A DNA stretch of 64,000 nt from a virus. The stretch covers positions 6,932-70,931 of the IMG/VR virus record IMGVR_UViG_3300012928_003423; one strand, given 5' to 3'. Of this stretch, positions 15,196 through 64,000 are shown in pieces. A model generated the notes under the pieces. The model was not told the DNA's origin. It made no database searches and was given only the letters and a program-made list of their open reading frames with translations. The position numbers and the translations under genes are program-made. Each line of letters opens with the position of its first letter. Position 1 is the first letter of the stretch.

Positions 15196-15197
15196 AA

Positions 15198-15703: not shown

Positions 15704-16075
15704 ATGGAAACGTATATTTATAAAAATTGCTATGATTATTACGAAAACTTATTAGAAAAATTCCATAAAAAATTTAACACTAAGTTGTTGATATCTGGAC
15801 GCATAGGAAAAAATAAGATTGCAATAGCAGCGTGTCAAAAACCTTTAATAGGTCTATTGTCTCCTTTTTTCATAAATGAAATTATAGATATGGAGGCAAG
15901 GGTTAAGACTATATTTGAAGAAGATGGTGAAGTAAATTACCTATGTGAGATAAAAGATGTTATGGGCGACTCTTTATTTGTCTCTAAATCATATGTCGAG
16001 CCAAAAAAAACTTACATATTTAAAATATATTCCATTCAAGGTTCAAAAAACAAAATAGATTCATATTGGTCATAA
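15704..16075 (+). CDS. Hypothetical protein
   Basis: ORF track. Confidence 0.6.
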   Translation: METYIYKNCYDYYENLLEKFHKKFNTKLLISGRIGKNKIAIAACQKPLIGLLSPFFINEIIDMEARVKTIFEEDGEVNYLCEIKDVMGDSLFVSKSYVEPKKTYIFKIYSIQGSKNKIDSYWS

Positions 16076-16079
16076 AACG

Positions 16080-16107
16080 TTGAAAAAACCTCCTTGAAAT
16101 GTATTAT
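16080..16107 (+). promoter_or_regulatory. sigma70-like promoter TTGAAA-N16-TATTAT
   Basis: ATG of the methyltransferase (16114) lies 6 nt after the -10 box. Confidence 0.55.
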
Positions 16108-27699: not shown

Positions 27700-28853
27700 T
27701 ATTTTTTTGACTCGTATATTGTTAAGAAATCAGAGTCTTCCCAAAAATCAGATGTATCTATAAAAGTTTGAAGATCAGAGGATGTTTCTTGATTTGTTAT
27801 CCAGTGAGCTTTTGATGCATAAGTTTTACCTTTAGATATTAGAATTTTGGATGACTTCACACCAAGACTGTAATCAGATTTAACAGAAAAATCAATAGGT
27901 TTTTTCTTTTTTTCATAAAACTCTATTGTTTCATCTATATTTTTGAGCCTAATTTCATTTAAGCCTTCTTTTATAGTGGTGAATAATTCGTAATGTATTC
28001 CAAATTTTTTTAAATTTTTTAAAAAGACTGCATCAAGCCCACCATCACAATTTACCGAAATTCTTTGTATTCTTGACCTGATTGACAAAAGTAAATTTTC
28101 AGAAAGAGGTTTATCTGTAATAATACCCATTTGCCTGTTTTGAGAAAATGCAAAAAGTAAATTTTCATCTAAAAAATAATCCGCCCTAACATTAATTAAT
28201 GAATTTGTCATTAAATCAGCGGGAGGCATAAAGTCAGGAATAATTTCTATTGTTTTTATATGCGACATATCGCCATTAAAAACCCTTTTTAAAGAAGATA
28301 AATTATTATTTATACCTAGGCTATTTAAAATAGCTGAAGCGATTTGATTAGGAGATATATTATCTATAGTCTTGGGTGATTCAGCTTTTGCAAAAGTTCT
28401 ATTTTTTCCATCTTGAGGAGCATCTATAAAAAAATCTTTAGCCCCTTTCTTGAAAGGAAAAAAATCAGAAGGAGAGCTTGAGAATATGCACACTAAAGGA
28501 ATATTTAACTGGTTCGCAACTAATGAAAGGCAACTATTTGCATTAAAATGAAGCATGGATTTGCTTATTATATAAGCATTTTGACCAAAAGTCTTATCGG
28601 TGTATTGATAAATGCCATCTATCTGCTTCTTATTATGGCTTCCTATTCTTAGTATTTTTATACCCTCTGCTTCTAAAAAAGGAGATATGAAGTCAATAAC
28701 ATCTTGCCAAAATTTATAATCTTTAGATTGCTCTTTTGAGAAGAACTCGAAAGTTATATATTTATCAAAAGGTATTGGAAAAAAACAAAGATTTATAGGA
28801 GGCTTTGAAGTTTTTAAAGCTGAGTGTAGGCTTATTTTTTCAAGCTTATTCAT
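27699..28853 (-). CDS. GT9 (heptosyltransferase-like) C-terminal half plus unknown domain
   Basis: SKDYKFWQDVI, IKILRIG, TFGQNAYIISKSMLHFNANSCLSLVANQLNIPLVCIF (degenerate DSG..H.A motif). Confidence 0.6.
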   Translation of the reverse strand: MNKLEKISLHSALKTSKPPINLCFFPIPFDKYITFEFFSKEQSKDYKFWQDVIDFISPFLEAEGIKILRIGSHNKKQIDGIYQYTDKTFGQNAYIISKSMLHFNANSCLSLVANQLNIPLVCIFSSSPSDFFPFKKGAKDFFIDAPQDGKNRTFAKAESPKTIDNISPNQIASAILNSLGINNNLSSLKRVFNGDMSHIKTIEIIPDFMPPADLMTNSLINVRADYFLDENLLFAFSQNRQMGIITDKPLSENLLLSIRSRIQRISVNCDGGLDAVFLKNLKKFGIHYELFTTIKEGLNEIRLKNIDETIEFYEKKKKPIDFSVKSDYSLGVKSSKILISKGKTYASKAHWITNQETSSDLQTFIDTSDFWEDSDFLTIYESKK

Positions 28854-30759
28854 GTGTTTTAAATGTCTTGTTATTTATAGAAATATAATTATTCACATCC
28901 TTCAAAACAGAATTAAAATTATAGCAATAATCAAAATATTTTTCACCTTCTTTTAATCCTGCACCTATCATGGCTCTTTCATTTTCTAGTTCGTCTTGAT
29001 AGGGAATACATTTAAATATATAAGGGTTGCATTGCACCATGGAAAAAAAAGAGGGATCTGTGGCGAAAAATATATCACAATCTTTATTTTTATCTTTAAA
29101 AGATTTTAGAACACTAGAAACAAGCAGAACGTCTTCTTCAGAAGTATTTACAGAAAATAGAGCTTTTTTGTTGCCTGAATTGTTTAACAATTTATTAAAG
29201 TCAACTGTCTTTTGTGTGTTAATGTTATTATTTTCTTGAACGGCAACTGATCTAAAATAATCTATTATTGATTGTCTAGTTGCTCCATTTTTTAACGAAG
29301 CCATCCAATGCTTGTGACCTTCATCGTTGTGATCTAAATCAACCTTTAAAATATTTTTATAAAGATCCACTAACCATTCAGAATCATCATCTATTTGAGG
29401 AGGATTGTAATTGGGGTCTCTTTTTTCAGGTTCAAATGAAAAGTTATAATCATGATCGGGCATTGCATCAATAATATTTTCAATCTTTTTTCCTATAACT
29501 TCTATTGAGTAGTTTTCTAATACAAATTTCCTAGCTTTTTTTCCTAGGCTAGATCTTTTTAACAAATCCATTTTAAAAACTTTTTCTAAATTTTTAGATA
29601 TGTCAATTGGGCATGTACTAGCTTTTATGAATTGAGTTCCTGGCTCTCTGTATTCGTTCCACTTTAATGGAAATCCACCACTATCTTCAGTACACATATC
29701 CTCTCCGCAAGAATAATTAGTAACTAATGTTACTAGTTCGCATAACTTAGCTTCTTGAATGGGTATTTCTTGACCTCCAGAAGTAAATGCATGACAATAA
29801 ACATCCATCAAATTGTAAACTTCATTTAATTGATGTTCGTTTACCCCACTAGCTATACTTACAGTATTTTGGCTTTCTTTAGTTCCGCAATAATTGCAAT
29901 TTAACTTCTGACCTTGAAATGGCTTCACTTCATACCTTTTGCAGGCTGAGCAATAATAAGTGCATAAAATATCATTAATATCAAGCCCTTTTTCTTCTAC
30001 TAATGCTGGTATATTCCAGCCTTCAGCAAAATTTGTATGAAGTAACAATTTAGCTTTAGATTTAGGGTTTTTTTCTTTAAATATTTTAAAGCCTTCTATT
30101 AAATTAGGAACTGTTTTTCTTAATTGATTTCTAAAAACATAACCTATGATAAAGGCATCTTGATCTATAGAAAAAGACCTTCTTAACTCTGACCTTCCTT
30201 CTGAGCCTACATTTTTAAAATTAGCACAATCTACCGCTCCATGAAGAGTTTTTACATGATTGTGACCTAATTTATGCATAGCTTTTTCCGCAAAAGATGC
30301 CCAAACATAATAATTTTTTATTTTTGGAGCCACTTTTACGGCATCGGGTAAAAGTGGAAGACTATCTAAAGTAGTCCAAATCATACAGTTTATTTTATTC
30401 CACCAAGTTTTTTTGGTAAAAGGAGATAGTCCCCATATATCCTCGACACCCATGTATATGTCTGGCTTTTCTTCTTTTATAATGTCGTCTATCCCAAGCA
30501 TGCCGTATTGAGCCTGCCTAGATAAATTTGGGTCTTTATTTATTTTGTCAATAACTGACTGATCTGCAGGTATGCCCCCTACACATTTCCAAGGCAATTT
30601 TGTTAGATCTTCATGGCCCTTTGATACTCCATTGGATAACTCAACTACCTCATATTTTCCTGTAGAAACAAGGTACTTTATTACATTTTTAGCATTTTTC
30701 CCAAAACCAGTTAGTATTTTTGAGAAATTGCTATGGTAAAGTATTTTCTTTTTTCGCAC
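28846..30759 (-). CDS. GT4 glycosyltransferase with Cys4 insert, DUF4214-like domain and GT9 N-terminal domain
   Basis: TGFGKNA, RNQLRK, YNLMDVYCHAFTSGGQEIPIQEAKLC (GT4); CSAC...CNYC; LYKNILKVDLDHNDEGHKHWMASLKNGATRQSIIDYF (DUF4214-like); EDVLLVSSVLKSFK...DIFFAT...QCNPYI (GT9-N). Confidence 0.85.
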   Translation of the reverse strand: MRKKKILYHSNFSKILTGFGKNAKNVIKYLVSTGKYEVVELSNGVSKGHEDLTKLPWKCVGGIPADQSVIDKINKDPNLSRQAQYGMLGIDDIIKEEKPDIYMGVEDIWGLSPFTKKTWWNKINCMIWTTLDSLPLLPDAVKVAPKIKNYYVWASFAEKAMHKLGHNHVKTLHGAVDCANFKNVGSEGRSELRRSFSIDQDAFIIGYVFRNQLRKTVPNLIEGFKIFKEKNPKSKAKLLLHTNFAEGWNIPALVEEKGLDINDILCTYYCSACKRYEVKPFQGQKLNCNYCGTKESQNTVSIASGVNEHQLNEVYNLMDVYCHAFTSGGQEIPIQEAKLCELVTLVTNYSCGEDMCTEDSGGFPLKWNEYREPGTQFIKASTCPIDISKNLEKVFKMDLLKRSSLGKKARKFVLENYSIEVIGKKIENIIDAMPDHDYNFSFEPEKRDPNYNPPQIDDDSEWLVDLYKNILKVDLDHNDEGHKHWMASLKNGATRQSIIDYFRSVAVQENNNINTQKTVDFNKLLNNSGNKKALFSVNTSEEDVLLVSSVLKSFKDKNKDCDIFFATDPSFFSMVQCNPYIFKCIPYQDELENERAMIGAGLKEGEKYFDYCYNFNSVLKDVNNYISINNKTFKTHE

Positions 30760-39610: not shown

Positions 39611-40816
39611 TTATTTTCTAAACTCGTAATAAGCGTAGCCATTCTTTTTTACTAAAATTTTCTCTTTAGTTTTTTTTTCCTCTTTAGGCTTAGTAGGCTC
39701 AGGAGATTCAGCTTCAACAATTATATTTTGAGCTTCCTCTTTTTTGGGTTCTTGTGGTTTTTTTTGTTTACCTATGAATCCAGATGCAGCGCAAATTACC
39801 ATAACTATAGCTAGAGGGTCAAATACAGAAACTATAAATACAATGACTAATCTAACAGCCCCTTCTGTGTTCATTTTAGGACCTCCAAAGTCTTCAATAA
39901 CTTGACCAATATATTTTAATGGCCCTAGCTCATTTTCTATTGCTAAAGTTTTTGTTTCTATTTCGAATTTTTGAAGATTTAATTGTTCTATTTTTGATAA
40001 GCTATCCTTAATTTTTTCTTCGTGTGATAAAATTGAATCCAAGTCAGCTTCACTTAATTCTATTTTTTCATTTTGAAGAGATAGTATTTGAGATCTTATT
40101 TGTTCTACTTTCTCATTAGATTCTTTTCTTTGATTTACAATAGAATCACTCGCAATTTTTAATTGAGAAGATATAAAAGATCTTTCTTCTTTTTGCGAAT
40201 CCTCTAATGTTTGTATTTTTTTAGTATTACTAGAAAAAAGCCCAGTTTTTTGATTTCTTAAAACTTCGACTGCATTATCAAGAATTTTTAGCCTAGATTG
40301 AAGTCTATCTATTTTTTCGTTACCGTCTTTTATATCAACATCCAGCCTAGTATAGATAGTATCTACATCGTTTTTTAATTGATCTATTATTTTCTGATTT
40401 TTATTCTCTGAAAATTCTGTTACTGATTTCTTATCAGAAATGAATGAATTTTGTCTGCTAATAGAGTCTTCTTCTAATTGTATTTTGCGATTAATTTCTT
40501 TAATTGAATTTTGCGAAAATGAAACGCTAGATGCATGTTCAATATGAGACTTGCTGAGAAAACCAAATATTCCTCCACTAGTAATAATCATTAATATAAA
40601 AATTGAAAACGATAAATAAAACTTTGTCAACTTTGATATCTTCTTCCAATTTTGATGCGTCCATACAGCTACTACAATTTTGGCTAATTCTAAAGCTACA
40701 GCCATTACAATTATAGAAATAATTGAACCTGGGAAAATAGTAGAAAGTCCTACTATACTAAAATAAGCGGCTATCGAAGAAAGCGATAAGGCCGAGAGAA
40801 GTAATAAATATTTCAT
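39611..40816 (-). CDS. Conserved phage membrane / coiled-coil protein
   Basis: Three N-terminal TMs (IAAYFSIVGL, ALELAKIV, ITSGGIFGFLSKSH), long coiled coil, GPLKYI...VFDPLAI. Confidence 0.8.
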   Translation of the reverse strand: MKYLLLLSALSLSSIAAYFSIVGLSTIFPGSIISIIVMAVALELAKIVVAVWTHQNWKKISKLTKFYLSFSIFILMIITSGGIFGFLSKSHIEHASSVSFSQNSIKEINRKIQLEEDSISRQNSFISDKKSVTEFSENKNQKIIDQLKNDVDTIYTRLDVDIKDGNEKIDRLQSRLKILDNAVEVLRNQKTGLFSSNTKKIQTLEDSQKEERSFISSQLKIASDSIVNQRKESNEKVEQIRSQILSLQNEKIELSEADLDSILSHEEKIKDSLSKIEQLNLQKFEIETKTLAIENELGPLKYIGQVIEDFGGPKMNTEGAVRLVIVFIVSVFDPLAIVMVICAASGFIGKQKKPQEPKKEEAQNIIVEAESPEPTKPKEEKKTKEKILVKKNGYAYYEFRK

Positions 40817-49453: not shown

Positions 49454-49790
49454 TTGTTAAAAAATCTTTAATTGTTTTTATTTTTTTTGGTTTGTTATAA
49501 TTCTTTCCAGTTTTCTTTCCTAGAATTATTTTTTCTGAGACAGAGGGTTTATATGAAAATTCAAGATATCTTTTTTTTAATTCTACAGCTCCATATTGAC
49601 CTTTAAGGAAAACTAAAGAATCATATTTTTTTTTAAAATTTAACAGTATCCAAAAATCTACATTAGGAAAGCGCTCATATAAATCATTTAAAAATTTAAT
49701 TTCTCTTGCCCAGAAAAATCTTTTATTTTTTTCTGGAATATTCACTAGGCGAGATATGATCTCTTTCTTTTCGGACTGTTTTAACTTCAC
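49446..49790 (-). CDS. Hypothetical protein
   Basis: ORF track. Confidence 0.7.
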   Translation of the reverse strand: MKLKQSEKKEIISRLVNIPEKNKRFFWAREIKFLNDLYERFPNVDFWILLNFKKKYDSLVFLKGQYGAVELKKRYLEFSYKPSVSEKIILGKKTGKNYNKPKKIKTIKDFLTNE

Positions 49791-51022
49791 TAAATTGTAT
49801 AAAAATTAAAATCATTAAAGTTGAAATACATAAAATAATCTCTATCTCCATAAGTAGATATTGCTTTATGTTTTTTGTTTTTAATTAGTTTCTTTTGCAA
49901 ATTTAAATTGTATTTTTCTATTGAACTATCGCAGTAATCATAGCCATTTACAGAATCAAATGCAACCCTTTTTACTAATAAGGTAGAATCTATCATAACA
50001 TGGTTATTATCGCTAGACAAAAGAGACATGCCAGAGTTGCTAGTACTTACTTTTACAACTGATTCTTGATCCCAAAAACAGATTACAGATCCTTCTGCTG
50101 GATAAATACAATTATTAATTTTATCTTTTAATTTATTGGGAGTTTTACTGCAAAAATATATATTTAAAAATTTAGATTTGATGTATTTTTTGAAATTAAA
50201 ATAAAGATTACTTGAAATTTCTTTATGAAAATCCCCGAAAAGAACTACTGTAAAGTCCAAAACAGATCTTAATAAAAAATTGTTACTCAAGCTTTGGTTT
50301 AGAGTTGTAAAATTTATATCTTCAAGCTTCTCCGCAAAGATGCAAAAACTCATTTTTTTTCTAGAATTAGAATTTTCAAGAAAAGTAAAGTAATTGTTTC
50401 TTTCGTTCTCTTTTTTGGCTGGAGGATGATATAGATGAACTCCATTTAAATTTTTTACAACAAAGGGATCGATGTTAGAAATTTTATTTTCAACAAAATC
50501 TAAATCTTCCCATCCCCATCCGTAAAATTTTTCATCAAAACCTCCAACTTTGCAAAAAATATCGGAAGATACTATCAGAGAATGTTTGCCGTAATAATTA
50601 TCTTCATCGTATTTTTTGTAATCTACAGGTCTACCTAGAGCAAATTCATTAGAATCTTGTTCGTTTAATTGGAATATAGAAGAAAACGGTCTTATTGCAT
50701 CTTGATTATTTATTTGACCTAAGACTTTATTAAAGTTAAGAAAAATATCTGAATCCAGAAACCAAACATAAGGAGTTTTTACATATTTAAATGCTAAGTT
50801 ATATAAAAAAGATTTTTTAAAAAAACAGTTAGAATAATGTTTAATTAAAATGTATTTACCTTTATTTTCTACTGAGTCATCTTTGTTTTTACCTTTTACT
50901 TGCTCTGCAATAATAAAAGGTATATCTAATTCAAGCAGATGAGATAATAAAAATTTATAATTCCTTTCTCTGTATGGGCAGGAATTAAGATAAGATATGA
51001 CAATAGTAACTTTTTTAATCAA
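49790..51022 (-). CDS. Glycosyltransferase (GT2 / galactosyltransferase GT7-C-like) with a second degenerate GT-A domain
   Basis: RERNYKF, FKKSFLYN, WFLDSD, VGGFDEKFYGWGWEDLDF, HLYHP; later FDSVNGYD. Confidence 0.8.
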   Translation of the reverse strand: MIKKVTIVISYLNSCPYRERNYKFLLSHLLELDIPFIIAEQVKGKNKDDSVENKGKYILIKHYSNCFFKKSFLYNLAFKYVKTPYVWFLDSDIFLNFNKVLGQINNQDAIRPFSSIFQLNEQDSNEFALGRPVDYKKYDEDNYYGKHSLIVSSDIFCKVGGFDEKFYGWGWEDLDFVENKISNIDPFVVKNLNGVHLYHPPAKKENERNNYFTFLENSNSRKKMSFCIFAEKLEDINFTTLNQSLSNNFLLRSVLDFTVVLFGDFHKEISSNLYFNFKKYIKSKFLNIYFCSKTPNKLKDKINNCIYPAEGSVICFWDQESVVKVSTSNSGMSLLSSDNNHVMIDSTLLVKRVAFDSVNGYDYCDSSIEKYNLNLQKKLIKNKKHKAISTYGDRDYFMYFNFNDFNFYTI

Positions 51023-54375: not shown

Positions 54376-54801
54376 TTATTTGTATTTTTCTAAATGTTTT
54401 TTAATTTTTTCAAATAATTTTTCTTCTATCTTGTAAGGAAAATTCTCAACAGAATCAACACTCCACCACATATATGCAGTATGCTCTGCATTTAAGCAAA
54501 CATTTGGCAAGTAGTTTAAGTTGCAAAAATGTAAATGAAAAATATTTTTTTCAAAATTTTTTAAATGACCTGCATACTCAAGATCTTCAACAGATATTTT
54601 TATTTTAGATTCTTCATATAGTTCTCTAACCGCACATTCAGCAGGAGTCTCGCTACCCTCCATCGATCCGCAAAATATAGACCAATGCTCTGGAAAAGGT
54701 ACTGGAATTTTTTTCTCCCCCCAATATTTGGGTCTTTTCGCAAGGAGAAATGATTTTCCTTGAGATATAACACAAACTCCAGCAGACTTCTTTATTGGCA
54801 T
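54376..54801 (-). CDS. Nudix hydrolase
   Basis: WSIFCGSMEGSETPAECAVRELYEESKI Nudix box; LNAEH. Confidence 0.9.
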   Translation of the reverse strand: MPIKKSAGVCVISQGKSFLLAKRPKYWGEKKIPVPFPEHWSIFCGSMEGSETPAECAVRELYEESKIKISVEDLEYAGHLKNFEKNIFHLHFCNLNYLPNVCLNAEHTAYMWWSVDSVENFPYKIEEKLFEKIKKHLEKYK

Positions 54802-57366: not shown

Positions 57367-58329
57367 TCACAAATTTTTTAAAAACCAAGAATAGGTTTCC
57401 GCAATACCTTTGTTTAAAGGAGTTTGTGGTAAAAATCCTAGATTAACCAATCTTGTATTATCCATTTTTTTTCTATAAGTGCCGTCTGGCTTATCTTTAT
57501 CAAAAATTATTTCACCATTATAATTTAAAATTTTTTTAATTTTTAATAAAAGATTTAAAATTGTAATTTCTTCATTTGACCCGCAGTTTAAATGAGATAT
57601 GCCTTGGTCGTATATATCTTTAGCTTCAACATTCTCCATGCAGAAAACAATTGCTTTAGCGACATCTTTGGAATATAAAAATTCTCTCAATGGACTTCCT
57701 GTACCCCATAAAGTTATATTTTCTTTTTTCTCTAATATAGCTTTATGAACTTTATTTATTAATGCTGGTAAAACATGAGAAGATTTTAAATCAAAATTAT
57801 CTCCAGGGCCATAAAGATTGCACGGCATTAATGAATAAAAATTGTTTTGATGCTGGTCATAAAAACTTTGGCACATTTTTAGTATAGCTATTTTTGCAAT
57901 GGCATAAGGTTCATTTGTTGGTTCTAATAATCCAGTTAGCAAAGACTCCTCTTTTATGGGTATTTGAGCTTCTTTGGGATAAATACATGAAGAACCTAAG
58001 TTTATTAACTTTTTAATTTCAAATTTATGGCAAGCTTGAACAACATTCGTTCCAATCTTAATGTTATCATATATGAAATCTGCTTTAAAATTATTATTCG
58101 CTAATATGCCTCCTACCTTTGCAGCACATAAAATTACAATATCAAAATTAAGATTTTTAAATAAGAGATTGACTTCACTTTCTTTTCTTAAATCTACCTC
58201 TTCCTTTGAACGTGTATGAATGTTGTTGTAACCCTGTTTTTTTAATTCTGAAACTACAGCCGAGCCAACCATTCCATTATGACCAGCAACAAAAATAGAA
58301 CTATCTTTGTGATAATTTTGTATAATCAT
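57367..58329 (-). CDS. fcl: GDP-L-fucose synthase
   Basis: IFVAGHNGMVGSA, AAKVGGI, LGSSCIYP, LEPTNEPYAIAK, MPCNLYGPGDNF, WGTGSPLREF. Confidence 0.95.
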   Translation of the reverse strand: MIIQNYHKDSSIFVAGHNGMVGSAVVSELKKQGYNNIHTRSKEEVDLRKESEVNLLFKNLNFDIVILCAAKVGGILANNNFKADFIYDNIKIGTNVVQACHKFEIKKLINLGSSCIYPKEAQIPIKEESLLTGLLEPTNEPYAIAKIAILKMCQSFYDQHQNNFYSLMPCNLYGPGDNFDLKSSHVLPALINKVHKAILEKKENITLWGTGSPLREFLYSKDVAKAIVFCMENVEAKDIYDQGISHLNCGSNEEITILNLLLKIKKILNYNGEIIFDKDKPDGTYRKKMDNTRLVNLGFLPQTPLNKGIAETYSWFLKNL

Positions 58330-59374
58330 TCTGGTACATTTTTTTTACAAGACCTTTAAAGTCGGTTTTTCTTTGCCATCCAAGCTCTCTTTCTGCTTTA
58401 GATGGATCGCCACATAATTCATGAACTTCTGCTGGTCTGTAAAATTTAGGATTAACTTCCATGATTACATGATCGCCTTTTTTAGAAATGTATTTTTCTT
58501 GATCTCCTGATCCTGTTTTATAATATTCTATGCAAGCATTTTTTAATGTTTCTTCCAGGAACTCTCTTATTGTGTGCATTTTGCCACTGCCTAAAACATA
58601 GTTTTTAGGATCTCCTTTCTGATTGAGCATCAACCAGACCCCCTCCATAAAATCTTCTGCATCGCTCCAATCTCTTTTAGCTTCTAAATTGCCGAGTGAA
58701 AATTTAGGAAATTCGATATGATGTAAATTTGACTTCTCCAAGGCAAGCTTAAATTTAGCCACATTGTAGGTTATCTTTCTTGTTACAAAATCAATACCTC
58801 TTCTTACTCCCTCATGATTGAATAACCAACCCTGAACTGCATATAATCCATATGATTCTTTATATACTCTTACCAAATGCCTAGCCGCACATTTTGCAGC
58901 TCCATAAGGAGATTGAGGACGCAAAGGATGATCGTCATTTTGAGGCGAATAAATTACATCCCCAAACTCTTCAGATGATCCTGCATTATAAAACTTACAT
59001 TGAGGAGCGAACCTCCTTAATGACTCAAGAATATGAAGAACTGCATCTGCATCTGTTCCCCAAGTTTGAATTGGATATTTCCAACTGCCAGCCACAAAAG
59101 ATTGAGCAGCAAAATTAATAAAATAATCTGGGTCAATGTCAATTATACAATCTCTTATACTATGAGCATCATTTAAATCTAAATCTAACATCTCAAAATT
59201 AGGATGATTTTCAAGATGTAATATATTTTCATGATTTTTAACACTTAACCTTCTAACGGTTCCATAAATTTTAAAATCAGAATCTCCGAGTTTATTTAAA
59301 AATAAATCAATTAAATAATCACACATGTGACTACCATCTTGACCAGTTATTCCTGTTACTATTATTTTTTTCAT
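58301..59374 (-). CDS. gmd: GDP-mannose 4,6-dehydratase
   Basis: TGITGQDGS, NFAAQSFV, AGSSEEFG, PQSPYGAAK, FNHE, FVTRKIT, LGNLEAKRDW, RPAEV. Confidence 0.95.
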   Translation of the reverse strand: MKKIIVTGITGQDGSHMCDYLIDLFLNKLGDSDFKIYGTVRRLSVKNHENILHLENHPNFEMLDLDLNDAHSIRDCIIDIDPDYFINFAAQSFVAGSWKYPIQTWGTDADAVLHILESLRRFAPQCKFYNAGSSEEFGDVIYSPQNDDHPLRPQSPYGAAKCAARHLVRVYKESYGLYAVQGWLFNHEGVRRGIDFVTRKITYNVAKFKLALEKSNLHHIEFPKFSLGNLEAKRDWSDAEDFMEGVWLMLNQKGDPKNYVLGSGKMHTIREFLEETLKNACIEYYKTGSGDQEKYISKKGDHVIMEVNPKFYRPAEVHELCGDPSKAERELGWQRKTDFKGLVKKMYQNDYTKLSQR

Positions 59375-59377
59375 TTA

Positions 59378-60331
59378 TTAATCAATATATAATTCTTTTT
59401 TGTAAGAAGGAATCCAGTCTTCAACACTGACACTGGGACTCCATTTTAATAGACTTTTAGCTTTGCTGTTATCAGCTAATGTTTCTCTAGGCTCTAAACG
59501 TTTTTCTATATATTTTCGCTCGCCACCCATTAAATCTGCTATTTGATTTATTGATCTATTATCTCCATTACCAATATTTATAACTTCTCCATTAAATTTT
59601 TCAGAAGATTTCATGGCTAGCAAGTTTGCTTTAGCCACATCACCAACATAAGTAAAATCTCTTCTCTGTTCTCCATCTCCAGTTATAGTTATAGGATCTC
59701 CCGCTATTCTTTGTTTTGCGAAAGTACTAATCACCAAAGCATAAGCTCCTTCTAGAACTTGCCTAGGTCCAAATACATTAAAATATCTTAGAGAAACCGT
59801 ATCAAGATTATAGCAATGGGAGAAAACTCTACAATATTGTTCTCCCACTAATTTTTGTAAACCATATGGGCTAAGAGGATCAGTTGGAGCAGTTTCTGGA
59901 GTAGGAAGAATATCAGTATCGCCATAAGCCGATGAAGATGCACTATAAACAAATCTTTTAGCTCCAATATCTTTGCATAAGGAAAGTGCATTTAATGTTC
60001 CATCTATATTCGCTTTATGGTATTTAAAAGGTTCTTCTATTGAAGGTTGAACTCTAGCAAGAGCTGCAAAATGGAAAACTCCATCTGCACCATCTATTGC
60101 CTGCATCATAATGTCGTAAAAGCCATTCAATGCTTTTCCTTCTGCATTTTGGTTTTTACAAAAATCATACAAGCTTATATCGAAATTATGAAAATGACTT
60201 TTTTCATTAACATTACTCATAAATCCTGTAGATAAATTATCTATCACATAGACTTCATGACCATCTTCGATTAAAGCGTCAACTACATTTGAGCCAATAA
60301 AACCAGCTCCTCCAATTACTACATATTTCAT
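59378..60331 (-). CDS. NAD-dependent nucleotide-sugar epimerase (GalE/WbpP-like)
   Basis: GGAGFIGS, HFAALARV, ASSSSAYG, SPYGLQK, RYFNVFGPRQ, RDFTYV. Confidence 0.9.
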   Translation of the reverse strand: MKYVVIGGAGFIGSNVVDALIEDGHEVYVIDNLSTGFMSNVNEKSHFHNFDISLYDFCKNQNAEGKALNGFYDIMMQAIDGADGVFHFAALARVQPSIEEPFKYHKANIDGTLNALSLCKDIGAKRFVYSASSSAYGDTDILPTPETAPTDPLSPYGLQKLVGEQYCRVFSHCYNLDTVSLRYFNVFGPRQVLEGAYALVISTFAKQRIAGDPITITGDGEQRRDFTYVGDVAKANLLAMKSSEKFNGEVINIGNGDNRSINQIADLMGGERKYIEKRLEPRETLADNSKAKSLLKWSPSVSVEDWIPSYKKELYID

Positions 60332-60340
60332 ATTATTTTA

Positions 60341-61240
60341 TTATACATGATCGTGACCACATCCTGATGGATCTTCATTTCCAGATTTAGTAACCGCAGA
60401 AGAAAAATTTTCCCAATCTTTCTCTGGTCTAACTTTTATATTAGTTTTCCAAGCTCCTTCTAACACATTAGGAGTTATATTATTAGATTTCATTAAATTA
60501 ATAAAGGAATTTATATCTTTGGGAAAACAAGTTCCTCCAAACCCAGCTTTACCATCATGCCCTGGTACTTGATAATGGCTAATCCCAATCCTTCCATCAG
60601 ACAGTACTCCTTCCATAATTTCATTATAATTCAAACTTAATTTTTCGCATAGTAAATTGACTTCATTGAAATAACTAATTTTTGTAGCAAAAAAACAATT
60701 TGCTACATACTTAATCATCTCACTAGAATCACTATCAACTAAAAAAGTTTTTGTTCCTGGAAATCTTTTTTCAAAAAGCTCTACAGCTTTGTTAGGAACA
60801 GCATGAAGGTTTGAATAAAAACTTTTTGGGTATCCTATTATATTTCTTGCAGGAGTTATAAAATCAAGTAAGGCTGTTCTTGCTGTAAGAAACTCAGGAG
60901 AATGCAATATTTTTAATTTTTTAAACTTTGTTTGTAATTTCAAAGTGGTTCCTATCGGAACTGTAGATTTTATAACAAAAATTGCATCAGATCCTATTGA
61001 TGATATCTCTTCAAATACAGAATTTATAATAGACAAGTCGCATTTACCATTTTGAGATAAAGACATGGGAGTAGGGACACAAACAAATACTAAATCTTGT
61101 TTTATACAATCTCTTAAACTGTCTTTGCTTTTATTTTTATCTTTGTCAAAAATTTTTAAATCATTAACATAATGAACAAACCCTTGAAAAACCGCAGATC
61201 CTACAAATCCGTTTCCTATAATGCCAAGTGTTATATCCAT
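60341..61240 (-). CDS. ugd: UDP-glucose/GDP-mannose dehydrogenase family protein, lacking the C-terminal domain
   Basis: GIIGNGFVG, CVPTP, KSTVPIG, HSPEFL, SEMIKYVAN.FFATKISYFNE, GFGGTCFPKD; only 299 aa. Confidence 0.85.
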   Translation of the reverse strand: MDITLGIIGNGFVGSAVFQGFVHYVNDLKIFDKDKNKSKDSLRDCIKQDLVFVCVPTPMSLSQNGKCDLSIINSVFEEISSIGSDAIFVIKSTVPIGTTLKLQTKFKKLKILHSPEFLTARTALLDFITPARNIIGYPKSFYSNLHAVPNKAVELFEKRFPGTKTFLVDSDSSEMIKYVANCFFATKISYFNEVNLLCEKLSLNYNEIMEGVLSDGRIGISHYQVPGHDGKAGFGGTCFPKDINSFINLMKSNNITPNVLEGAWKTNIKVRPEKDWENFSSAVTKSGNEDPSGCGHDHV

Positions 61241-61276
61241 TATTTTATAATAAATTTATATAAAAATTTTCAAAAA

Positions 61277-61996
61277 TTATATTTTACTTCTAGCTAAACC
61301 TAATTCAGAAATCTCTTTTGAGTCTTGTGGTCTAGAAACAAAAAGAGCTTTTGATCTATCTGTAGTTTCTTCTTTTTTGAGGAATGCTGATATAATAGAT
61401 TTTCTTTCTGATTTGACTAAAGGGACTCCATGATAAGATTTTGAAGAATCCTCAAAAATTAATAATCTGTTATTTATAGGCTCAATTTCTATAATTTTTT
61501 CTGAAACATTATCGTTCCATATTTCTAGGCATCCTTCGTCCCTTTCTCTGTTATAATCTTTATTTAAATAATAAATTAAAGTCAACTTCTTTTTAAGGCC
61601 GCTTTCTGGATGAACATCAGCATCGCTATGTATCATTTGCTTCGAGTCTTTTAACATAGACCTTACTCCAGCCCACCTTCTCGTTTTATCGATTATTAGA
61701 TTTTGAATATTAGTGACTTCTTCTATGATGTTCTTGAAGTTTTCTGAATGAAAATAATCTAAGACAGAGAGGGGGCTACTGGGAATGTCTTCACAATTAT
61801 CAATTGCAATCATCCCTGTTTCTAGAATATTTTCTTTTTCACCTATTTTTTTATGCCCCCCATGCCAAACACTTGAATTGGAATCAGGCCAATCTTTTAG
61901 GATTGATTCATTAACTTCTGATTTCAAGAAGCTATCAATAACCCAAACATTATACGGTTTACTGTAGTGATTTATTGAGTATTCAGAATTAATCAT
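61277..61996 (-). CDS. 2OG-Fe(II) oxygenase
   Basis: MIHSD (HxD), LTLIYYLN, GCLEIW, PINNRLLIF, SYHGV, RKSI. Confidence 0.88.
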   Translation of the reverse strand: MINSEYSINHYSKPYNVWVIDSFLKSEVNESILKDWPDSNSSVWHGGHKKIGEKENILETGMIAIDNCEDIPSSPLSVLDYFHSENFKNIIEEVTNIQNLIIDKTRRWAGVRSMLKDSKQMIHSDADVHPESGLKKKLTLIYYLNKDYNRERDEGCLEIWNDNVSEKIIEIEPINNRLLIFEDSSKSYHGVPLVKSERKSIISAFLKKEETTDRSKALFVSRPQDSKEISELGLARSKI

Positions 61997-63159
61997 AACA
62001 TCTTTTCAAAAAAATATTTATTGTATTCATTTTTTAATATACCTAAAAGTTGATTGGATATAAAGTCTATGTCTTGAGTCGTTAACCACCACCCACAAGG
62101 AAGAGAAATTTGATGCTTGTTAAAATAATCTGTTTCTGGTAGATCTTTGATGCTTTGAGAAAAACAACTATAATTATGATTTGGTATATGTACAACGCCA
62201 GCACCTATTCCAATTTTATTTAAAGATTCAAGGACATCATCTCTATTAATTTTATCATTTAATAATATTGTAAAGACCCAATAGCTAGGGTTGCATTCAT
62301 CAGGTTTAGATAAAAAAGATAAGAAATCATTATCTGACAAAAACCTCTCATATAGTAACGCGTTTTTTCTATGAGAATTGATTATTATCTCTAAATGAGG
62401 TATTTGAGACAAGCCAATAGCTGCTGAGATATTATTCATGTGAAACTTATATCCAGGTTCTTTAATGTCAGTCTCCCACCTCTGACCTTTCCATTCACCT
62501 TTTTCATCTTTAGATAACTCTCTATCTATGCCAAACCACTTTAATGGCTTAGCTCTTTTGAAGTCTTCATCATTTCTACACATTAATAAACCACCATCTC
62601 CGCTGGTAATATGTTTGATGGCTTGTAAACTATAGCATGTAAAGTCGGAGTAATGGCATAATTGTTTTTCCTTGTAGGTCGATCCAAAAGAATGAGCCGC
62701 GTCCTGAATTAATTTTATATCATTATCTTTACAAAATTTATCCAACTCTATTAGATCACATGGGTAGCCAGCCCAATTAACACAAACTAAAGCTTTTGTT
62801 TTTTTTGTTATTGATTTTTCTAAATTTTCAAAGTCAATATTTCCTGTATTTCTGTCAATATCCACCCAAACAGGATTCGCTCCTAAATTACATATAGGCA
62901 TATTTGTCGCAACACATGTCATTGATGTAGTTAGTACATCGTCCCCATCTTGGACTCCAGAAATTTTCAAAGCAAGTGTTAAGGCTGATGTGCAAGAATT
63001 AACAGCGAGCAAATTATTGAAATTAAAATAGTTTTTAAATTGATTTTCTAATTCTATCACCCATTCGCCTTCATTAAGAAAACCGCTCTCTAGCACTTCT
63101 TCTAGATTTTTTAGAGCTAAAGTTTTATCGGTATGAACTTTAAAGAGTGGGAATTTCAT
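61993..63159 (-). CDS. DegT/DnrJ/EryC1/StrS PLP sugar aminotransferase (perosamine-synthase-like)
   Basis: AVNSCTSAL, DAAHSFG, SLQAIKHITSGDGG (PLP Lys), GYKFHMNN. Confidence 0.93.
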   Translation of the reverse strand: MKFPLFKVHTDKTLALKNLEEVLESGFLNEGEWVIELENQFKNYFNFNNLLAVNSCTSALTLALKISGVQDGDDVLTTSMTCVATNMPICNLGANPVWVDIDRNTGNIDFENLEKSITKKTKALVCVNWAGYPCDLIELDKFCKDNDIKLIQDAAHSFGSTYKEKQLCHYSDFTCYSLQAIKHITSGDGGLLMCRNDEDFKRAKPLKWFGIDRELSKDEKGEWKGQRWETDIKEPGYKFHMNNISAAIGLSQIPHLEIIINSHRKNALLYERFLSDNDFLSFLSKPDECNPSYWVFTILLNDKINRDDVLESLNKIGIGAGVVHIPNHNYSCFSQSIKDLPETDYFNKHQISLPCGWWLTTQDIDFISNQLLGILKNEYNKYFFEKML

Positions 63160-63845
63160 ATTTTAGAAAATTTAAATTCTATTTTTTGGTTCCCCATTTT
63201 GATATAAGGTAAAGGTTTTCCTTTAAAAGTTAAAGCTCGAACTTTTCTGAAGAATTTTTTTTCATCATCTAATTCTTTAAATTTTAATTCATGAATTAAA
63301 TCTTTTTTCCGATGCATGATGCTTTCTTTGTCGGAAGGTATTGGTTTTAAACAAGAGCCGTTTATTATTTTTTTAAAATTTTTTTTAAGTAAAGATAATC
63401 CTAGATTATGAGCTTTGTAAAAAATATCTTCGGCTGTGTCGCTGTCTTCTATTTTAAAGAAATTAGTATCTATAATCGCTCCATCATCTAATTTTTTATT
63501 AATAAAATGCATTGAAGCTCCATGTTTTTTGTCTTGATTTAATATGGGGTAAGAAGAGCAGTTAGACCCCCTATGTTTTAATCTATAGGAATTATGGAAA
63601 TTTATTATTCCCATTGGCACTTTTAATATATTACTTTCGGAAATAATTTTGTCAAAACCAAAAGATAAAATCACATCCGAAATTTCGAAAAGTTTGCTGG
63701 GCTTTTCTTCTGGCAAGCCAACATCAACAGGGGGATTCCATATCCCGCACAGAGTGTAATTAGAATCAATAGAATCTTTCTTTATCCAATTTATGTATGG
63801 ATTCCAGTATGATTGACCTCCACAAAGTATGCTACAGTTAATCAT
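63156..63845 (-). CDS. Sugar N-formyltransferase (FMT-like)
   Basis: INFHNSYRLKHRG (catalytic N,H), GASMHFINKKLDDGAII (catalytic D). Confidence 0.88.
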   Translation of the reverse strand: MINCSILCGGQSYWNPYINWIKKDSIDSNYTLCGIWNPPVDVGLPEEKPSKLFEISDVILSFGFDKIISESNILKVPMGIINFHNSYRLKHRGSNCSSYPILNQDKKHGASMHFINKKLDDGAIIDTNFFKIEDSDTAEDIFYKAHNLGLSLLKKNFKKIINGSCLKPIPSDKESIMHRKKDLIHELKFKELDDEKKFFRKVRALTFKGKPLPYIKMGNQKIEFKFSKI

Positions 63846-64000
63846 TATGCTTGTTTAAATTTATTTTTCTAATAGCTGAATATTTTGCACCTTCAGCCTC
63901 TTCGAATTTATCAATATTTTTTTCTAACATATTTAATTTTGATAGGTAAGACAAAAGCTGTTCTTTATCTAAAATCAAATCCTCTATTCCGCTATTAAAA
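63838..64000 (-). CDS. C-terminal end of a gene starting beyond the window
   Basis: Open frame ...FNSGIEDLILDKEQLLSYLSKLNMLEKNIDKFEEAEGAKYSAIRKINLNKHND*, overlapping the formyltransferase start. Confidence 0.6.
   Translation of the reverse strand, partial: FNSGIEDLILDKEQLLSYLSKLNMLEKNIDKFEEAEGAKYSAIRKINLNKHND

What the first reader, a model, noticed from the sequence alone, without database searches (positions are those of the whole stretch)
57367..63845. Complete-looking GDP-N-formyl-perosamine and GDP-fucose pathway in a phage
Seen: a contiguous coupled run of formyltransferase, DegT aminotransferase, 2OG oxygenase, Ugd, epimerase, gmd and fcl, plus at least five GT-like genes, FkbM and a WcbI-like gene elsewhere in the window. 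Known: Gmd + Per + a formyltransferase (WbkC-type) yield GDP-4-formamido-4,6-dideoxymannose, the Brucella O-antigen sugar, and Gmd + Fcl yield GDP-fucose. Inference: the phage builds its own complex glycan, for virion glycosylation as in giant viruses, host-surface conversion, or DNA hypermodification. The aminotransferase substrate (GDP- vs dTDP/UDP-keto sugar) cannot be fixed from sequence alone.
Basis: partly seen in the sequence, partly recalled or inferred. Interest (0 to 1): 0.72.

Follow-up and report, generated by a model that had tools for sequence, protein, structure and literature searches.

The report
Phage formamido-sugar cassette plus GDP-fucose genes

Summary
The seven genes exist at the stated coordinates with catalytic motifs intact. 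The "Ugd" is a short form that lacks the nucleotide-sugar-binding domain.

The run continues past the window edge. [quoted passage not shown] Before that come an unknown 290-aa gene and a GT2.

Dehydratase, formyltransferase, aminotransferase and 2OG oxygenase form a cassette. It is 91% identical in DNA between two phages whose backbones are only about 72% alike. The same four genes recur, in other orders, in further marine phage lineages, once with formyltransferase and oxygenase fused.

Short-Ugd, epimerase, Gmd and Fcl form a separate, conserved block next to ribonucleotide reductase, and this block also occurs without the cassette.

The best reading is three routes:
- a UDP-2-acetamido-4-formamido-2,4,6-trideoxyhexose, further tailored by the oxygenase;
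- GDP-L-fucose;
- probably a UDP-uronic acid.

GDP-N-formylperosamine is not supported.

The contig is a genuine phage fragment: a colinear 163-kb relative has terminase and tail genes. It is not a host chimera. No exporter-like membrane protein is encoded, and the glycan's target is unknown.

Sugar islands in marine phages, and Gmd plus Fcl in particular, are already known. Earlier notes of this scan describe similar islands on other phage DNA.

The parts
63838..64000 (-). [quoted passage not shown] The rest lies beyond the window edge, at G000:C1:70769-71806 = L002:770-1807. Further upstream come an unknown 290-aa gene (L002:1804-2676) and a GT2 of 206 aa (L002:2673-3293).
   Evidence: Polysacc_synt_2, E 3e-81. 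Best NCBIfam model is PseB at 273 bits, below its cut-off. Best solved structure is 4TQG, Megavirus Mg534, at 296 bits; then FlaA1/PseB 201, and retaining PglF only 128. GGSGSLG, STDKA and YGLCK motifs are present. It overlaps the formyltransferase gene by 8 nt.
63156..63845 (-). Sugar N-formyltransferase, 229 aa
   Evidence: Formyl_trans_N. The N-x-H and Asp catalytic residues are present. Best solved structures are the sugar N-formyltransferases QdtF and WlaRD at about 65 bits; WbkC scores 34.5 and PseJ 31.8. Only 9 cluster representatives reach E<=1e-30 among 1.84 billion proteins. Its nearest relatives sit next to DegT genes, usually with an SDR dehydratase nearby.
61993..63159 (-). DegT-family PLP sugar aminotransferase, 388 aa
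   Evidence: DegT_DnrJ_EryC1, E 2.9e-87. Best NCBIfam model is PseC at 264 bits, below its cut-off. PLP lysine (SLQAIK) and DAAH motifs are present. Homologues at 51-61% identity sit beside the 2OG oxygenase in 11 of 23 phage loci, 9 of which also carry a PseB-like dehydratase.
61277..61996 (-). 2OG/Fe(II) oxygenase, 239 aa, last gene of the cassette; reaction unknown
   Evidence: 2OG-FeII_Oxy_3. H123-x-D125, H189 and R198 are invariant in 38 homologues. AlphaFold2 pLDDT 96.6. Fold matches are OGFOD1/Tpa1, PolD/PasI and PHD2, with TM about 0.6. It is linked to PseB-like dehydratases in 17 of 23 loci and fused to the formyltransferase in L075.
60341..61240 (-). Short UDP-glucose/GDP-mannose-dehydrogenase-family enzyme, 299 aa, without the C-terminal nucleotide-sugar-binding domain; first gene of the conserved backbone block
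   Evidence: Only the N and central Pfam domains are found. GNGFVG and GGTCFPKD motifs are present. The catalytic set is invariant in 39 homologues of 275-320 aa. The AlphaFold2 model has two domains only, and all fold matches are full-length enzymes.
59378..60331 (-). GalE/WbpP/TviC-like NDP-sugar 4-epimerase, 317 aa
   Evidence: Epimerase, E 1.6e-58. GalE scores 169 bits and TviC 165 bits; ArnA scores only 43. Best solved structures are GalE, WbpP and WbgU (172-189 bits); UDP-GlcA 4-epimerase scores 150 and UXS1 134.
58301..59374 (-). GDP-mannose 4,6-dehydratase (Gmd), 357 aa
   Evidence: GDP_Man_Dehyd, E 4.8e-96. TIGR01472 scores 288 bits, below its cut-off of 415. All 11 solved structures at E<=1e-40 are Gmd or Gmd-family proteins; one carries only a code name.
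57367..58329 (-). GDP-L-fucose synthase (Fcl/WcaG), 320 aa
   Evidence: NF047922 GDPFucSynFcl, E 2.2e-123, 412 bits (cut-off 500), matched end to end. It overlaps gmd by 29 nt.
49790..51022 (-). GT-A-like glycosyltransferase, 410 aa, after the RNR beta gene; part of the conserved backbone
   Evidence: Glyco_transf_7C at 5.2e-7 and Glyco_tranf_2_2 at 4e-6. Present in relatives.
28846..30759 (-). GT4-like domain plus DUF4214 protein, 637 aa
   Evidence: Glycos_transf_1 at 2.5e-6 and DUF4214 at 1.9e-4, both weak.
21773..22729 (-). GT2 glycosyltransferase, 318 aa
   Evidence: Glycos_transf_2, E 8.6e-14.

Best explanation
The region is the promoter-distal part of an operon of at least ten genes in a fragment (about half) of an uncultured marine phage of roughly 160 kb and 31% GC. 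The operon has two evolutionarily separate modules.

Module 1 is a mobile four-gene cassette:
- A PseB/Mg534-type inverting dehydratase turns UDP-GlcNAc into UDP-2-acetamido-2,6-dideoxy-L-arabino-hex-4-ulose.
- The DegT enzyme aminates C4.
- The formyltransferase formylates that amine with N10-formyl-tetrahydrofolate. The product is a UDP-2-acetamido-4-formamido-2,4,6-trideoxyhexose, as in the first three steps of the PseB-PseC-PseJ route to Pse5Ac7Fo.
- A 2OG/Fe(II) oxygenase adds a further oxidative tailoring step, not yet described, on this 6-deoxy-L-HexNAc scaffold.
- No nonulosonate synthase or CMP-transferase is present, so the UDP-sugar is probably used directly by a glycosyltransferase.

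Module 2 is a conserved backbone block next to ribonucleotide reductase:
- Gmd plus Fcl make GDP-L-fucose.
- The short dehydrogenase plus the 4-epimerase probably make a UDP-uronic acid or its C4 epimer.

Soluble phage glycosyltransferases then assemble a glycan. Its target is inferred only. I lean toward phage proteins over the host envelope.

What is shown: gene content, intact motifs, coupling, cassette inheritance, recurrent linkage and phage context. What is inferred: every substrate, the sugar stereochemistry, the oxygenase reaction and the target.
For: 1. Coupling. GT2, unk290, PseB-like, FT, AT and 2OG overlap each other by 4-8 nt. A 36-nt gap follows, then short-Ugd, epimerase, Gmd and Fcl.

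2. Dehydratase identity. Best solved structures are Megavirus Mg534 (4TQG) at 296 bits, FlaA1/PseB at 201, FnlA at 190 and CapE at 182; retaining PglF scores only 128. [quoted passage not shown]

3. Cassette inheritance. G000 68198-71806 matches G001 12493-16101 at 91.3% nt. The block begins at the dehydratase start codon and ends about 10 nt past the oxygenase stop. The rest of the two genomes is mostly 65-78% alike, apart from one other ~1-kb block at 90%. Protein identities in the cassette are 93-95%. In G001 nine other genes separate the cassette from short-Ugd and Gmd.

4. Recurrence in other phage lineages.
- PseB-AT-FT-2OG in a Tara contig.
- 2OG-AT-FT-(501 aa)-PseB in several IMG/VR contigs.
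- AT-FT-2OG in L018.
- Of 23 loci holding an oxygenase homologue, 17 carry a PseB-like or Polysacc_synt_2 gene, 11 an adjacent AT (51-61% identity), and only 3 a Gmd-like gene.
- In some loci a hexapeptide acyltransferase takes the place of the formyltransferase.

5. FT-2OG fusion. A 491-aa FT::2OG fusion sits in L075. The fused A8 form occurs in contigs of two studies and the split A7 form in a third.

6. Backbone block. Short-Ugd, epimerase, Gmd, Fcl and RNR-alpha are conserved in five relatives, including ones without the cassette.

7. No onward pathway. No NeuB or CTP_transf_3 is found in G000, G001 or G002.

8. Precedents. A PseJ formyltransferase is described for the Pse5Ac7Fo route (PMC11040635). 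Gmd plus Fcl are annotated in an isolated cyanophage (PMC9602691).

9. Phage context.
- G000 is colinear with 95-161 kb of G003, a 163,424-bp contig that CheckV rates 100% complete.
- G003 has a large terminase (phrog_2, 2e-26), a protease and tail or virion proteins.
- Cluster GC is 0.28-0.34 against 0.312 for the genome.

10. No exporter. No protein with more than six predicted membrane helices is found in G000, G001 or G003.
Against: - No enzyme here has been assayed.
- The aminotransferase scores below every NCBIfam equivalog cut-off. PseC is best at 264 bits against a cut-off of 423.
- Its best solved relatives are sugar aminotransferases of the AT2433 and calicheamicin pathways (AtmS13 205 bits, CalS13 172) and ArnB (161). 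By my recollection these act on 4-keto-pentoses. PglE (150) and PseC (149) rank just below.
- The formyltransferase is closest to enzymes that formylate dTDP-3-amino sugars (QdtF, WlaRD) and is only remotely like PseJ.
- A Gmd that could supply GDP-4-keto-6-deoxymannose lies 3 kb downstream in the same transcription direction, so cross-feeding cannot be excluded.
- The contig ends about 150 nt upstream of the GT2, so further pathway genes may be missing in this genome.
- The fold of the oxygenase is equally close to protein prolyl hydroxylases.
- The membrane-helix scan is a crude hydropathy window.
Confidence: 0.65

Rival explanations
1. First reader's reading. Gmd supplies GDP-4-keto-6-deoxymannose, the DegT enzyme is a perosamine synthase, and the formyltransferase is WbkC-like. 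The product is GDP-4-formamido-4,6-dideoxymannose.
For: Gmd, aminotransferase and formyltransferase are co-directional within 6.5 kb. Perosamine synthase is a significant match to the aminotransferase at 130 bits. WbkC is a detectable match to the formyltransferase.
Against: - Perosamine synthase ranks 14th among solved structures and WbkC about 12th.
- The cassette brings its own UDP-GlcNAc dehydratase.
- The cassette and the Gmd-Fcl block are inherited separately.
- Aminotransferase homologues sit next to PseB-like genes. A Gmd-like gene is present in only 3 of 23 loci.
Confidence: 0.1
2. The cassette makes the first intermediates of a 7-N-formyl pseudaminic-acid-type nonulosonic acid (Pse5Ac7Fo-like). 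The remaining steps (PseG, PseI, PseF) are encoded beyond the contig end or supplied by the host.
For: - The order of chemistry matches PseB, PseC and PseJ.
- A relative of the same lineage (L015) carries NeuB, CTP_transf_3, PIG-L and a formyltransferase in the same island position.
- This contig ends just upstream of the cluster.
Against: G001 carries the same cassette at 91% nt identity. It has 12.5 kb upstream and 6.3 kb downstream sequenced, and no NeuB or CTP_transf_3 anywhere in its 99 kb. None of the other cassette loci was seen to carry them, but those loci were compared only with this cluster's own proteins, so the check is weak.
Confidence: 0.12
3. An Arn-like route. Short-Ugd makes UDP-GlcA, the SDR decarboxylates it to UDP-4-keto-arabinose, the aminotransferase (ArnB-like) aminates it, and the formyltransferase (ArnA-N-like) formylates it. 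The product is UDP-4-formamido-4-deoxy-L-arabinose.
For: Three of the aminotransferase's best solved relatives are AtmS13, CalS13 and ArnB; by my recollection these act on 4-keto-pentoses. A dehydrogenase, an SDR, an aminotransferase and a formyltransferase are all in one operon.
Against: - The SDR is GalE/WbpP/TviC-like (165-189 bits). It scores only 43 bits on ArnA and 44 on the UDP-xylose synthase model.
- The short-Ugd and SDR pair persists in relatives without any aminotransferase.
- The cassette occurs in other phages without a Ugd.
Confidence: 0.06
4. The cluster is a host (bacterial) surface-polysaccharide island joined to phage DNA by misassembly.
For: No virion gene lies on this 73-kb contig. 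The gene content resembles bacterial O-antigen loci.
Against: - The same backbone with the island in the same place occurs in at least five independently assembled contigs, one of them complete with terminase and tail genes.
- Composition is uniform.
- The island is flanked on both sides by phage genes in the relatives.
- There is no Wzx, Wzy or priming-transferase-like membrane protein.
Confidence: 0.02

Closest known systems
PseB-PseC-PseJ steps of the bacterial pseudaminic acid (Pse5Ac7Fo) pathway
   Same: [quoted passage not shown]
   Different: - PseG, PseI and PseF are absent.
- All three enzymes score below the equivalog cut-offs.
- The formyltransferase is only remotely like PseJ (31.8 bits).
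- A 2OG oxygenase, which the Pse pathway lacks, is an integral cassette member.
- The setting is a phage.
Megavirus chilensis Mg534-Mg536 UDP-L-RhaNAc/L-QuiNAc cluster (giant-virus fibril glycosylation)
   Same: The dehydratase is most similar to Mg534 (4TQG, 296 bits, aligned over 314 residues). Both are virus-encoded, clade-specific sugar clusters with soluble glycosyltransferases (PMC10117803).
   Different: Here the 4-keto intermediate is aminated and formylated, not reduced. The virus infects bacteria. Some phage relatives (L023, L068, L069) do pair the dehydratase with an RmlD-like reductase, as Megavirus does.
Hypervariable glycan or 'host recognition cluster' islands of marine T4-like myophages (pelagimyophages, cyanomyophages), and Gmd-Fcl genes of cyanophage S-SCSM1
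   Same: Island content is swapped between close relatives. It includes glycosyltransferases and sugar-nucleotide enzymes, among them a 'UDP-glucose 6-dehydrogenase', Gmd and Fcl (PMC7029224; PMC9602691).
   Different: - This lineage has a split DnaE-type polymerase and no close cultured relative; the best phage match to DnaE is about 29% identity.
- The island lies beside ribonucleotide reductase in the replication half of the genome, not among tail-fibre genes.
- The specific four-gene cassette has not, to my knowledge, been described.
Brucella/Caulobacter GDP-perosamine route (Gmd, Per, WbkC)
   Same: A Gmd, a DegT aminotransferase and a sugar formyltransferase lie in one operon.
   Different: Per and WbkC are not the closest relatives. 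The aminotransferase and formyltransferase travel with a UDP-GlcNAc dehydratase and independently of Gmd.
ArnA (formyltransferase fused to a second pathway enzyme)
   Same: In L075 the sugar formyltransferase is fused to another enzyme of the same pathway, as in ArnA.
   Different: The fusion partner is a 2OG oxygenase, not an SDR decarboxylase. The fusion is toggled by a one-base change in an A7/A8 run. In this window the two genes are separate.

Membership tests
GDP-L-fucose de novo pathway (Gmd + Fcl/WcaG) | A GDP-mannose 4,6-dehydratase orthologue | tested here: met
   TIGR01472 scores 288 bits end to end, though below the equivalog cut-off of 415. All 11 solved structures at E<=1e-40 are Gmd or Gmd-family proteins. 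GITGQDG and Y..K motifs are present.
GDP-L-fucose de novo pathway (Gmd + Fcl/WcaG) | A GDP-4-keto-6-deoxymannose 3,5-epimerase/4-reductase orthologue adjacent to gmd | tested here: met
   NF047922 scores 412 bits over 2-304 of 308 positions, below the cut-off of 500. It overlaps gmd by 29 nt. The pair is conserved in five relatives.
GDP-N-formylperosamine pathway (Gmd, Per, WbkC) | Aminotransferase orthologous to GDP-perosamine synthase | tested here: not met
   Perosamine synthase (3bn1, 3dr4) scores 127-130 bits and ranks 14th, behind enzymes acting on TDP- and UDP-sugars.
GDP-N-formylperosamine pathway (Gmd, Per, WbkC) | Formyltransferase orthologous to WbkC | tested here: not met
   WbkC (5vys) scores 34.5 bits against about 65 bits for QdtF and WlaRD.
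GDP-N-formylperosamine pathway (Gmd, Per, WbkC) | Aminotransferase and formyltransferase co-inherited with Gmd | tested here: not met
   The cassette and the Gmd block have different histories. A Gmd-like gene occurs in 3 of 23 related loci, against 17 with a PseB-like gene.
Pseudaminic acid pathway (PseB, C, H/J, G, I, F) | [quoted passage not shown] | tested here: met
   Best matches are Mg534 and FlaA1. The STDKA and YxxxK motifs are present. The score is below the TIGR03589 cut-off (273 against 408).
Pseudaminic acid pathway (PseB, C, H/J, G, I, F) | PseC-type C4 aminotransferase | tested here: inconclusive
   PseC is the best NCBIfam model, but at 264 bits against a cut-off of 423. Solved PseC scores 149 bits, below ArnB and AtmS13.
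Pseudaminic acid pathway (PseB, C, H/J, G, I, F) | Nonulosonate synthase (PseI/NeuB) and CMP-transferase (PseF) | tested here: not met
   PF03102 and PF02348 give no match in G000, G001 or G002. G000 is only 54% complete, but G001 covers both flanks of the same cassette.
UDP-glucose/GDP-mannose dehydrogenase family | Three-domain architecture with a C-terminal nucleotide-sugar-binding domain | tested here: not met
   Only the N and central domains are found. The model ends after the helical domain. All fold matches are targets of 377-468 aa, of which it covers about half.
UDP-glucose/GDP-mannose dehydrogenase family | NAD-binding GxGxxG and the catalytic Cys, Lys, Asn, Asp set | tested here: met
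   G9, G11, G14, E116, K177, N181, C238 and D242 are invariant in 39 homologues.
Arn (UDP-L-Ara4FN) pathway | UDP-GlcA C4-oxidative decarboxylase (ArnA C-terminal domain type) | tested here: not met
   The SDR scores 43 bits on the ArnA model against 165-169 bits on TviC and GalE. Its best solved structures are 4-epimerases.
Hypervariable glycan islands of marine phages | Island content differs between otherwise colinear relatives | tested here: met
Hypervariable glycan islands of marine phages | Location among tail-fibre genes (host recognition cluster in the strict sense) | tested here: not met
   The island abuts RNR-alpha in the replication half. Structural genes lie at least 17 kb away in the complete relative.

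The most novel reading that the evidence does not exclude
The four-gene cassette makes a nucleotide sugar not yet described. The 2OG/Fe(II) oxygenase would carry out a new oxidative step on the UDP-6-deoxy-L-HexNAc scaffold, for example C-H hydroxylation of the C6 methyl or of a ring carbon. The site would be one shared by the amino-formyl, amino-acetyl and reduced variants. Marine phages of several lineages would exchange this cassette to vary a glycan that they put on their own proteins. Separately, the short dehydrogenase family may be a working uronic-acid-forming enzyme that does without the canonical nucleotide-binding domain.
Probability: 0.3. Interest if true: 0.7.

Novelty: new variant of a known kind. 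Interest (0 to 1): 0.5.

Why it matters
Sugar-building islands are among the most variable parts of abundant ocean phages, yet nobody knows what they make or what they decorate.

This case breaks one such island into a conserved block (GDP-fucose and a probable uronic acid) and a mobile cassette with a concrete, testable product (a UDP-linked formamido-acetamido trideoxyhexose).

It also shows that a 2OG oxygenase of unknown reaction is a regular, sometimes fused, member of that cassette. That gives enzymologists a defined four-protein system to reconstitute.

It corrects a tempting misannotation as well. Seeing Gmd, DegT and a formyltransferase together does not imply N-formylperosamine.

Tried and rejected
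- Megablast of the region against 50,697 phage records found nothing. The lineage has no close cultured relative; the best phage match to DnaE is about 29% identity.
- The contig is not circular and has no terminal repeat. The ORFs at its two ends do not join in frame.
- A word-based homologue search with the formyltransferase gave only two hits. The exhaustive search was needed.
- PHROGs on ten unknown proteins of the contig gave almost nothing.
- Sigma-70 promoter and terminator scans were at chance level: 51 promoter-like sites found against 46 expected, and no minus-strand terminator. They say nothing about operon structure.
- A T4-type major capsid search (PF07068) gave no significant match in five relatives.
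- PSI-BLAST of the 290-aa unknown among all fetched loci found only its orthologues. Language-model neighbours are virus-only clusters, one with GT2 in 13% of members. This is a lead only.
- The NUDIX gene after RNR-alpha is not recognisably a GDP-mannose hydrolase.
- I did not build a reference phylogeny of the aminotransferase or formyltransferase, because sequences of characterised Per, PseC, PglE, VioA and WbkC could not be fetched with these tools. Bit-score ranks against all solved structures were used instead.
- I ran no complex prediction, because I claim no protein-protein binding.

Full report
**Observation**

The minus strand of window 57367-63845 carries seven ORFs.
- formyltransferase, 229 aa;
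- DegT aminotransferase, 388 aa;
- 2OG/Fe(II) oxygenase, 239 aa;
- a UDP-glucose/GDP-mannose-dehydrogenase-family protein, 299 aa;
- an SDR epimerase, 317 aa;
- Gmd, 357 aa;
- Fcl, 320 aa.

Cofactor and catalytic motifs are intact in every one:
- the PLP lysine and DAAH in the aminotransferase;
- N-x-H and Asp in the formyltransferase;
- HxD...H in the oxygenase;
- GxGxxG and GGxCxxKD in the dehydrogenase;
- the Rossmann motif and YxxxK in the three SDRs.

Two corrections are needed. First, the 'Ugd' has only the NAD-binding and central domains. It lacks the entire C-terminal nucleotide-sugar-binding domain. Second, the run does not start at 63845.

**What lies beyond the window**

The window is bases 6932-70931 of a single 73,444-bp virus contig. 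Upstream in the last 2.5 kb, with each gene overlapping the next by 4-8 nt, lie:
- a GT2 of 206 aa;
- an unknown 290-aa protein;
- a 345-aa Polysacc_synt_2 enzyme whose stop overlaps the formyltransferase start.

The 345-aa enzyme scores best on the PseB model. Among solved structures it scores:

| Structure | Bits |
|---|---|
| 4TQG (Megavirus chilensis Mg534) | 296 |
| H. pylori FlaA1/PseB | 201 |
| FnlA | 190 |
| CapE | 182 |
| Retaining PglF | 128 |

[quoted passage not shown] The aminotransferase and formyltransferase therefore have a dedicated supplier of a UDP-4-keto-6-deoxy-HexNAc right in front of them.

**Two modules with different histories**

A relative, G001 (IMG/VR, 99 kb), is colinear with this contig at mostly 65-78% nucleotide identity. 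The stretch from the dehydratase start codon to about 10 nt past the oxygenase stop is 91.3% identical. Its proteins are 93-95% identical. One other block of about 1 kb, at the far end of the contig, is also 90% identical.

In G001 nine unrelated genes sit between that cassette and the short dehydrogenase. They include a TylF-like and another methyltransferase, a WbqC-like protein and a DegT fragment.

The block short-Ugd, epimerase, Gmd, Fcl, RNR-alpha is present in five relatives. These include a 198-kb contig whose island instead holds NeuB, a CMP-transferase-type gene, a PIG-L deacetylase and a different formyltransferase. Another relative has a GNAT, a different SDR and a 43%-identical aminotransferase.

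In this genome a 36-nt gap separates the cassette's last gene from the backbone block. The aminotransferase and formyltransferase are thus inherited with the UDP-GlcNAc dehydratase and independently of Gmd.

**The cassette recurs elsewhere**

The formyltransferase belongs to a small subfamily: 9 cluster representatives at E<=1e-30 among 1.84 billion proteins. Its nearest relatives sit next to DegT genes, usually with an SDR dehydratase nearby. The closest relative (45% identity) lies in the order aminotransferase, formyltransferase, 2OG oxygenase.

I surveyed 23 phage loci that hold a homologue of the oxygenase. Some are near-duplicates. The counts:
- 17 have a PseB-like or Polysacc_synt_2 dehydratase within a few genes;
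- 11 have an aminotransferase, 51-61% identical to this one, directly beside the oxygenase, and 9 of these also have the dehydratase;
- 6 have the formyltransferase;
- 3 have any Gmd-like gene.

A Tara contig has the four genes in the order dehydratase, aminotransferase, formyltransferase, oxygenase, each overlapping the next by 4 nt. In some loci a hexapeptide-repeat acyltransferase stands where the formyltransferase would be. In others the dehydratase and oxygenase go with an RmlD-like reductase, the Megavirus arrangement.

In one 193-kb phage contig, formyltransferase and oxygenase are a single 491-aa ORF. The fused and split forms differ by one A in an A8/A7 run. Assembled contigs of two studies carry the fused form; one of those studies may be the source of the contig, and the other differs at 10 positions. 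A third study carries the split form.

**What the enzymes most likely do**

Cassette steps, all inferred from family and context:
1. UDP-GlcNAc is converted to UDP-2-acetamido-2,6-dideoxy-L-arabino-hex-4-ulose.
2. That is aminated to the 4-amino sugar.
3. That is formylated to the 4-formamido sugar.

This is the chemistry of PseB, PseC and the formyltransferase PseJ on the way to Pse5Ac7Fo (PMC11040635). However, there is no nonulosonate synthase or CMP-transferase in this contig. Nor is there one in G001, which covers both flanks of the same cassette. The UDP-sugar is therefore probably a direct donor. The C4 stereochemistry cannot be read from sequence.

The oxygenase:
- It folds with very high confidence (pLDDT 96.6) into a prolyl-hydroxylase-like double-stranded beta-helix.
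- Its fold is about equally close to ribosomal and HIF prolyl hydroxylases and to PolD/PasI, which oxidise sugar-nucleoside phosphates.
- It travels with the dehydratase whatever happens at C4, and it can be fused to the formyltransferase.
- On that basis I infer it acts on the nucleotide sugar at a position common to all variants, and not on a protein acceptor. The reaction itself is unknown.

Backbone block:
- Gmd and Fcl are clear. All solved structures matching Gmd at E<=1e-40 are Gmd or Gmd-family proteins, and Fcl matches its model end to end.
- The SDR between them and the dehydrogenase is a GalE/WbpP/TviC-type 4-epimerase, not an ArnA- or UXS-type decarboxylase.
- The short dehydrogenase belongs to a large marine family of 275-320 aa in which the NAD motif and the Cys, Lys, Asn, Asp and Glu catalytic set are invariant.
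- Its model has two domains and a disordered tail. No solved structure has this short form.
- I read the pair as a UDP-uronic acid route with low confidence, because it is unclear how the enzyme would hold the nucleotide.

**Rivals**

*GDP-N-formylperosamine.* It fails three tests:
- Per and WbkC are not the nearest characterised relatives.
- The aminotransferase is not co-inherited with Gmd.
- The cassette has its own dehydratase.

It cannot be fully excluded without an assay, since the aminotransferase is below all equivalog cut-offs.

*An Arn-like UDP-Ara4FN route.* It is suggested by the aminotransferase's best solved relatives (AtmS13, CalS13, ArnB), which by my recollection act on 4-keto-pentoses. 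It is contradicted by the epimerase-type SDR and by the independent distribution of the parts.

*A nonulosonic-acid end product.* It remains possible if the missing steps lie beyond the contig end or in the host.

*A chimeric host island.* It is very unlikely.

**Is it a phage?**

The contig itself has replication and nucleotide-metabolism genes but no virion genes:
- a split DnaE;
- DnaB and primase;
- a RecA-like protein;
- RNR alpha and beta;
- sigma factors;
- a ClpB-like ATPase.

It is colinear with 95-161 kb of G003, a 163,424-bp IMG/VR contig that CheckV rates 100% complete. G003's other half has a large terminase (phrog_2, E 2e-26), a protease, tail or virion proteins and giant ORFs. 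GC content of the cluster (0.28-0.34) matches the genome (0.312).

**Target of the glycan**

A simple hydropathy scan found no protein with more than six predicted membrane helices in this contig, in G001 or in the complete relative. So there is no phage-encoded flippase, polymerase, ligase or polytopic priming transferase. The glycosyltransferases look soluble.

This fits cytoplasmic glycosylation of phage proteins, as in giant viruses. It equally allows host machinery to use the phage-made donors. The pelagimyophage literature favours host O-chain modification (PMC7029224). I rate virion or other protein targets somewhat above host-surface conversion, and DNA modification as unlikely. None of this was tested.

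**Novelty**

Already known:
- variable sugar islands in marine phages;
- phage Gmd-Fcl pairs (PMC7029224, PMC9602691).

Earlier notes of this scan describe comparable swappable islands on other phage DNA.

New here:
- the resolution into a conserved block and a mobile cassette;
- the UDP-GlcNAc-based reading of the formamido branch;
- the regular membership, and occasional fusion, of a 2OG oxygenase;
- the domain-lacking dehydrogenase family.

Noticed in passing
window 60341-61240 (and L031-L046): The 'Ugd' belongs to a large marine family of 275-320-aa dehydrogenases. They keep GxGxxG and the catalytic Cys, Lys, Asn and Asp but lack the nucleotide-sugar-binding domain, and no solved structure has this form. 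In a second phage lineage the gene always follows a 378-aa GT1 glycosyltransferase instead of preceding an epimerase.
   Followed up: partly
L075:5236-6711 (IMGVR_UViG_3300025127_000009): Formyltransferase and 2OG oxygenase are one 491-aa ORF. An A8 run gives the fusion. An A7 run gives two genes with an ATGA overlap. Both forms occur in contigs of different studies. The A-run might also allow ribosomal or transcriptional slippage.
   Followed up: partly
G000:C1:1-1045 (L001:1-948, outside the window): This is a second block of about 90% nucleotide identity to G001, against a backbone of about 72%. It covers a GHKL-ATPase (HATPase_c_3) gene at the contig start. It may be another recently exchanged gene.
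   Followed up: no
window 26060-26866: A 268-aa protein joins an APS-kinase-like P-loop domain to a cytidylyltransferase-like nucleotidyltransferase motif. It may be a sugar-phosphate kinase/nucleotidyltransferase that feeds the glycan genes beside it.
   Followed up: no
window 54376-54801: The NUDIX gene directly after RNR-alpha is conserved in all relatives. It shows only weak MutT/Ap4A-hydrolase-like matches, so it is not recognisably a GDP-mannose mannosyl hydrolase despite lying near gmd-fcl.
   Followed up: partly
window 14536-15195: The 'WcbI-like' call rests on an 18-residue match below the Pfam cut-off. The protein is of unknown family.
   Followed up: yes
G003 (L051:3288-14018 and 58629-67256 of the contig): The complete relative encodes giant ORFs of 3576 and 2875 aa in its structural half. 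These are candidate fibre or decoration proteins that could be glycan acceptors.
   Followed up: no
L082:7682-8686: In the Tara phage that carries the cassette in the order PseB-AT-FT-2OG, an adenylosuccinate-synthase-family gene lies 1.2 kb downstream. It may be PurZ-like, which would point to 2-aminoadenine DNA.
   Followed up: no
L015:5877-8542: A relative of the same phage lineage carries CTP_transf_3, a short NeuB (243 aa), a PIG-L deacetylase and a formyltransferase at the same island position. This looks like a nonulosonic-acid-type module.
   Followed up: no
window 39611-40816: This is the only multi-helix membrane protein of the contig: 401 aa, about 4-5 predicted helices, no family match. 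It is conserved in G001 and G003.
   Followed up: no
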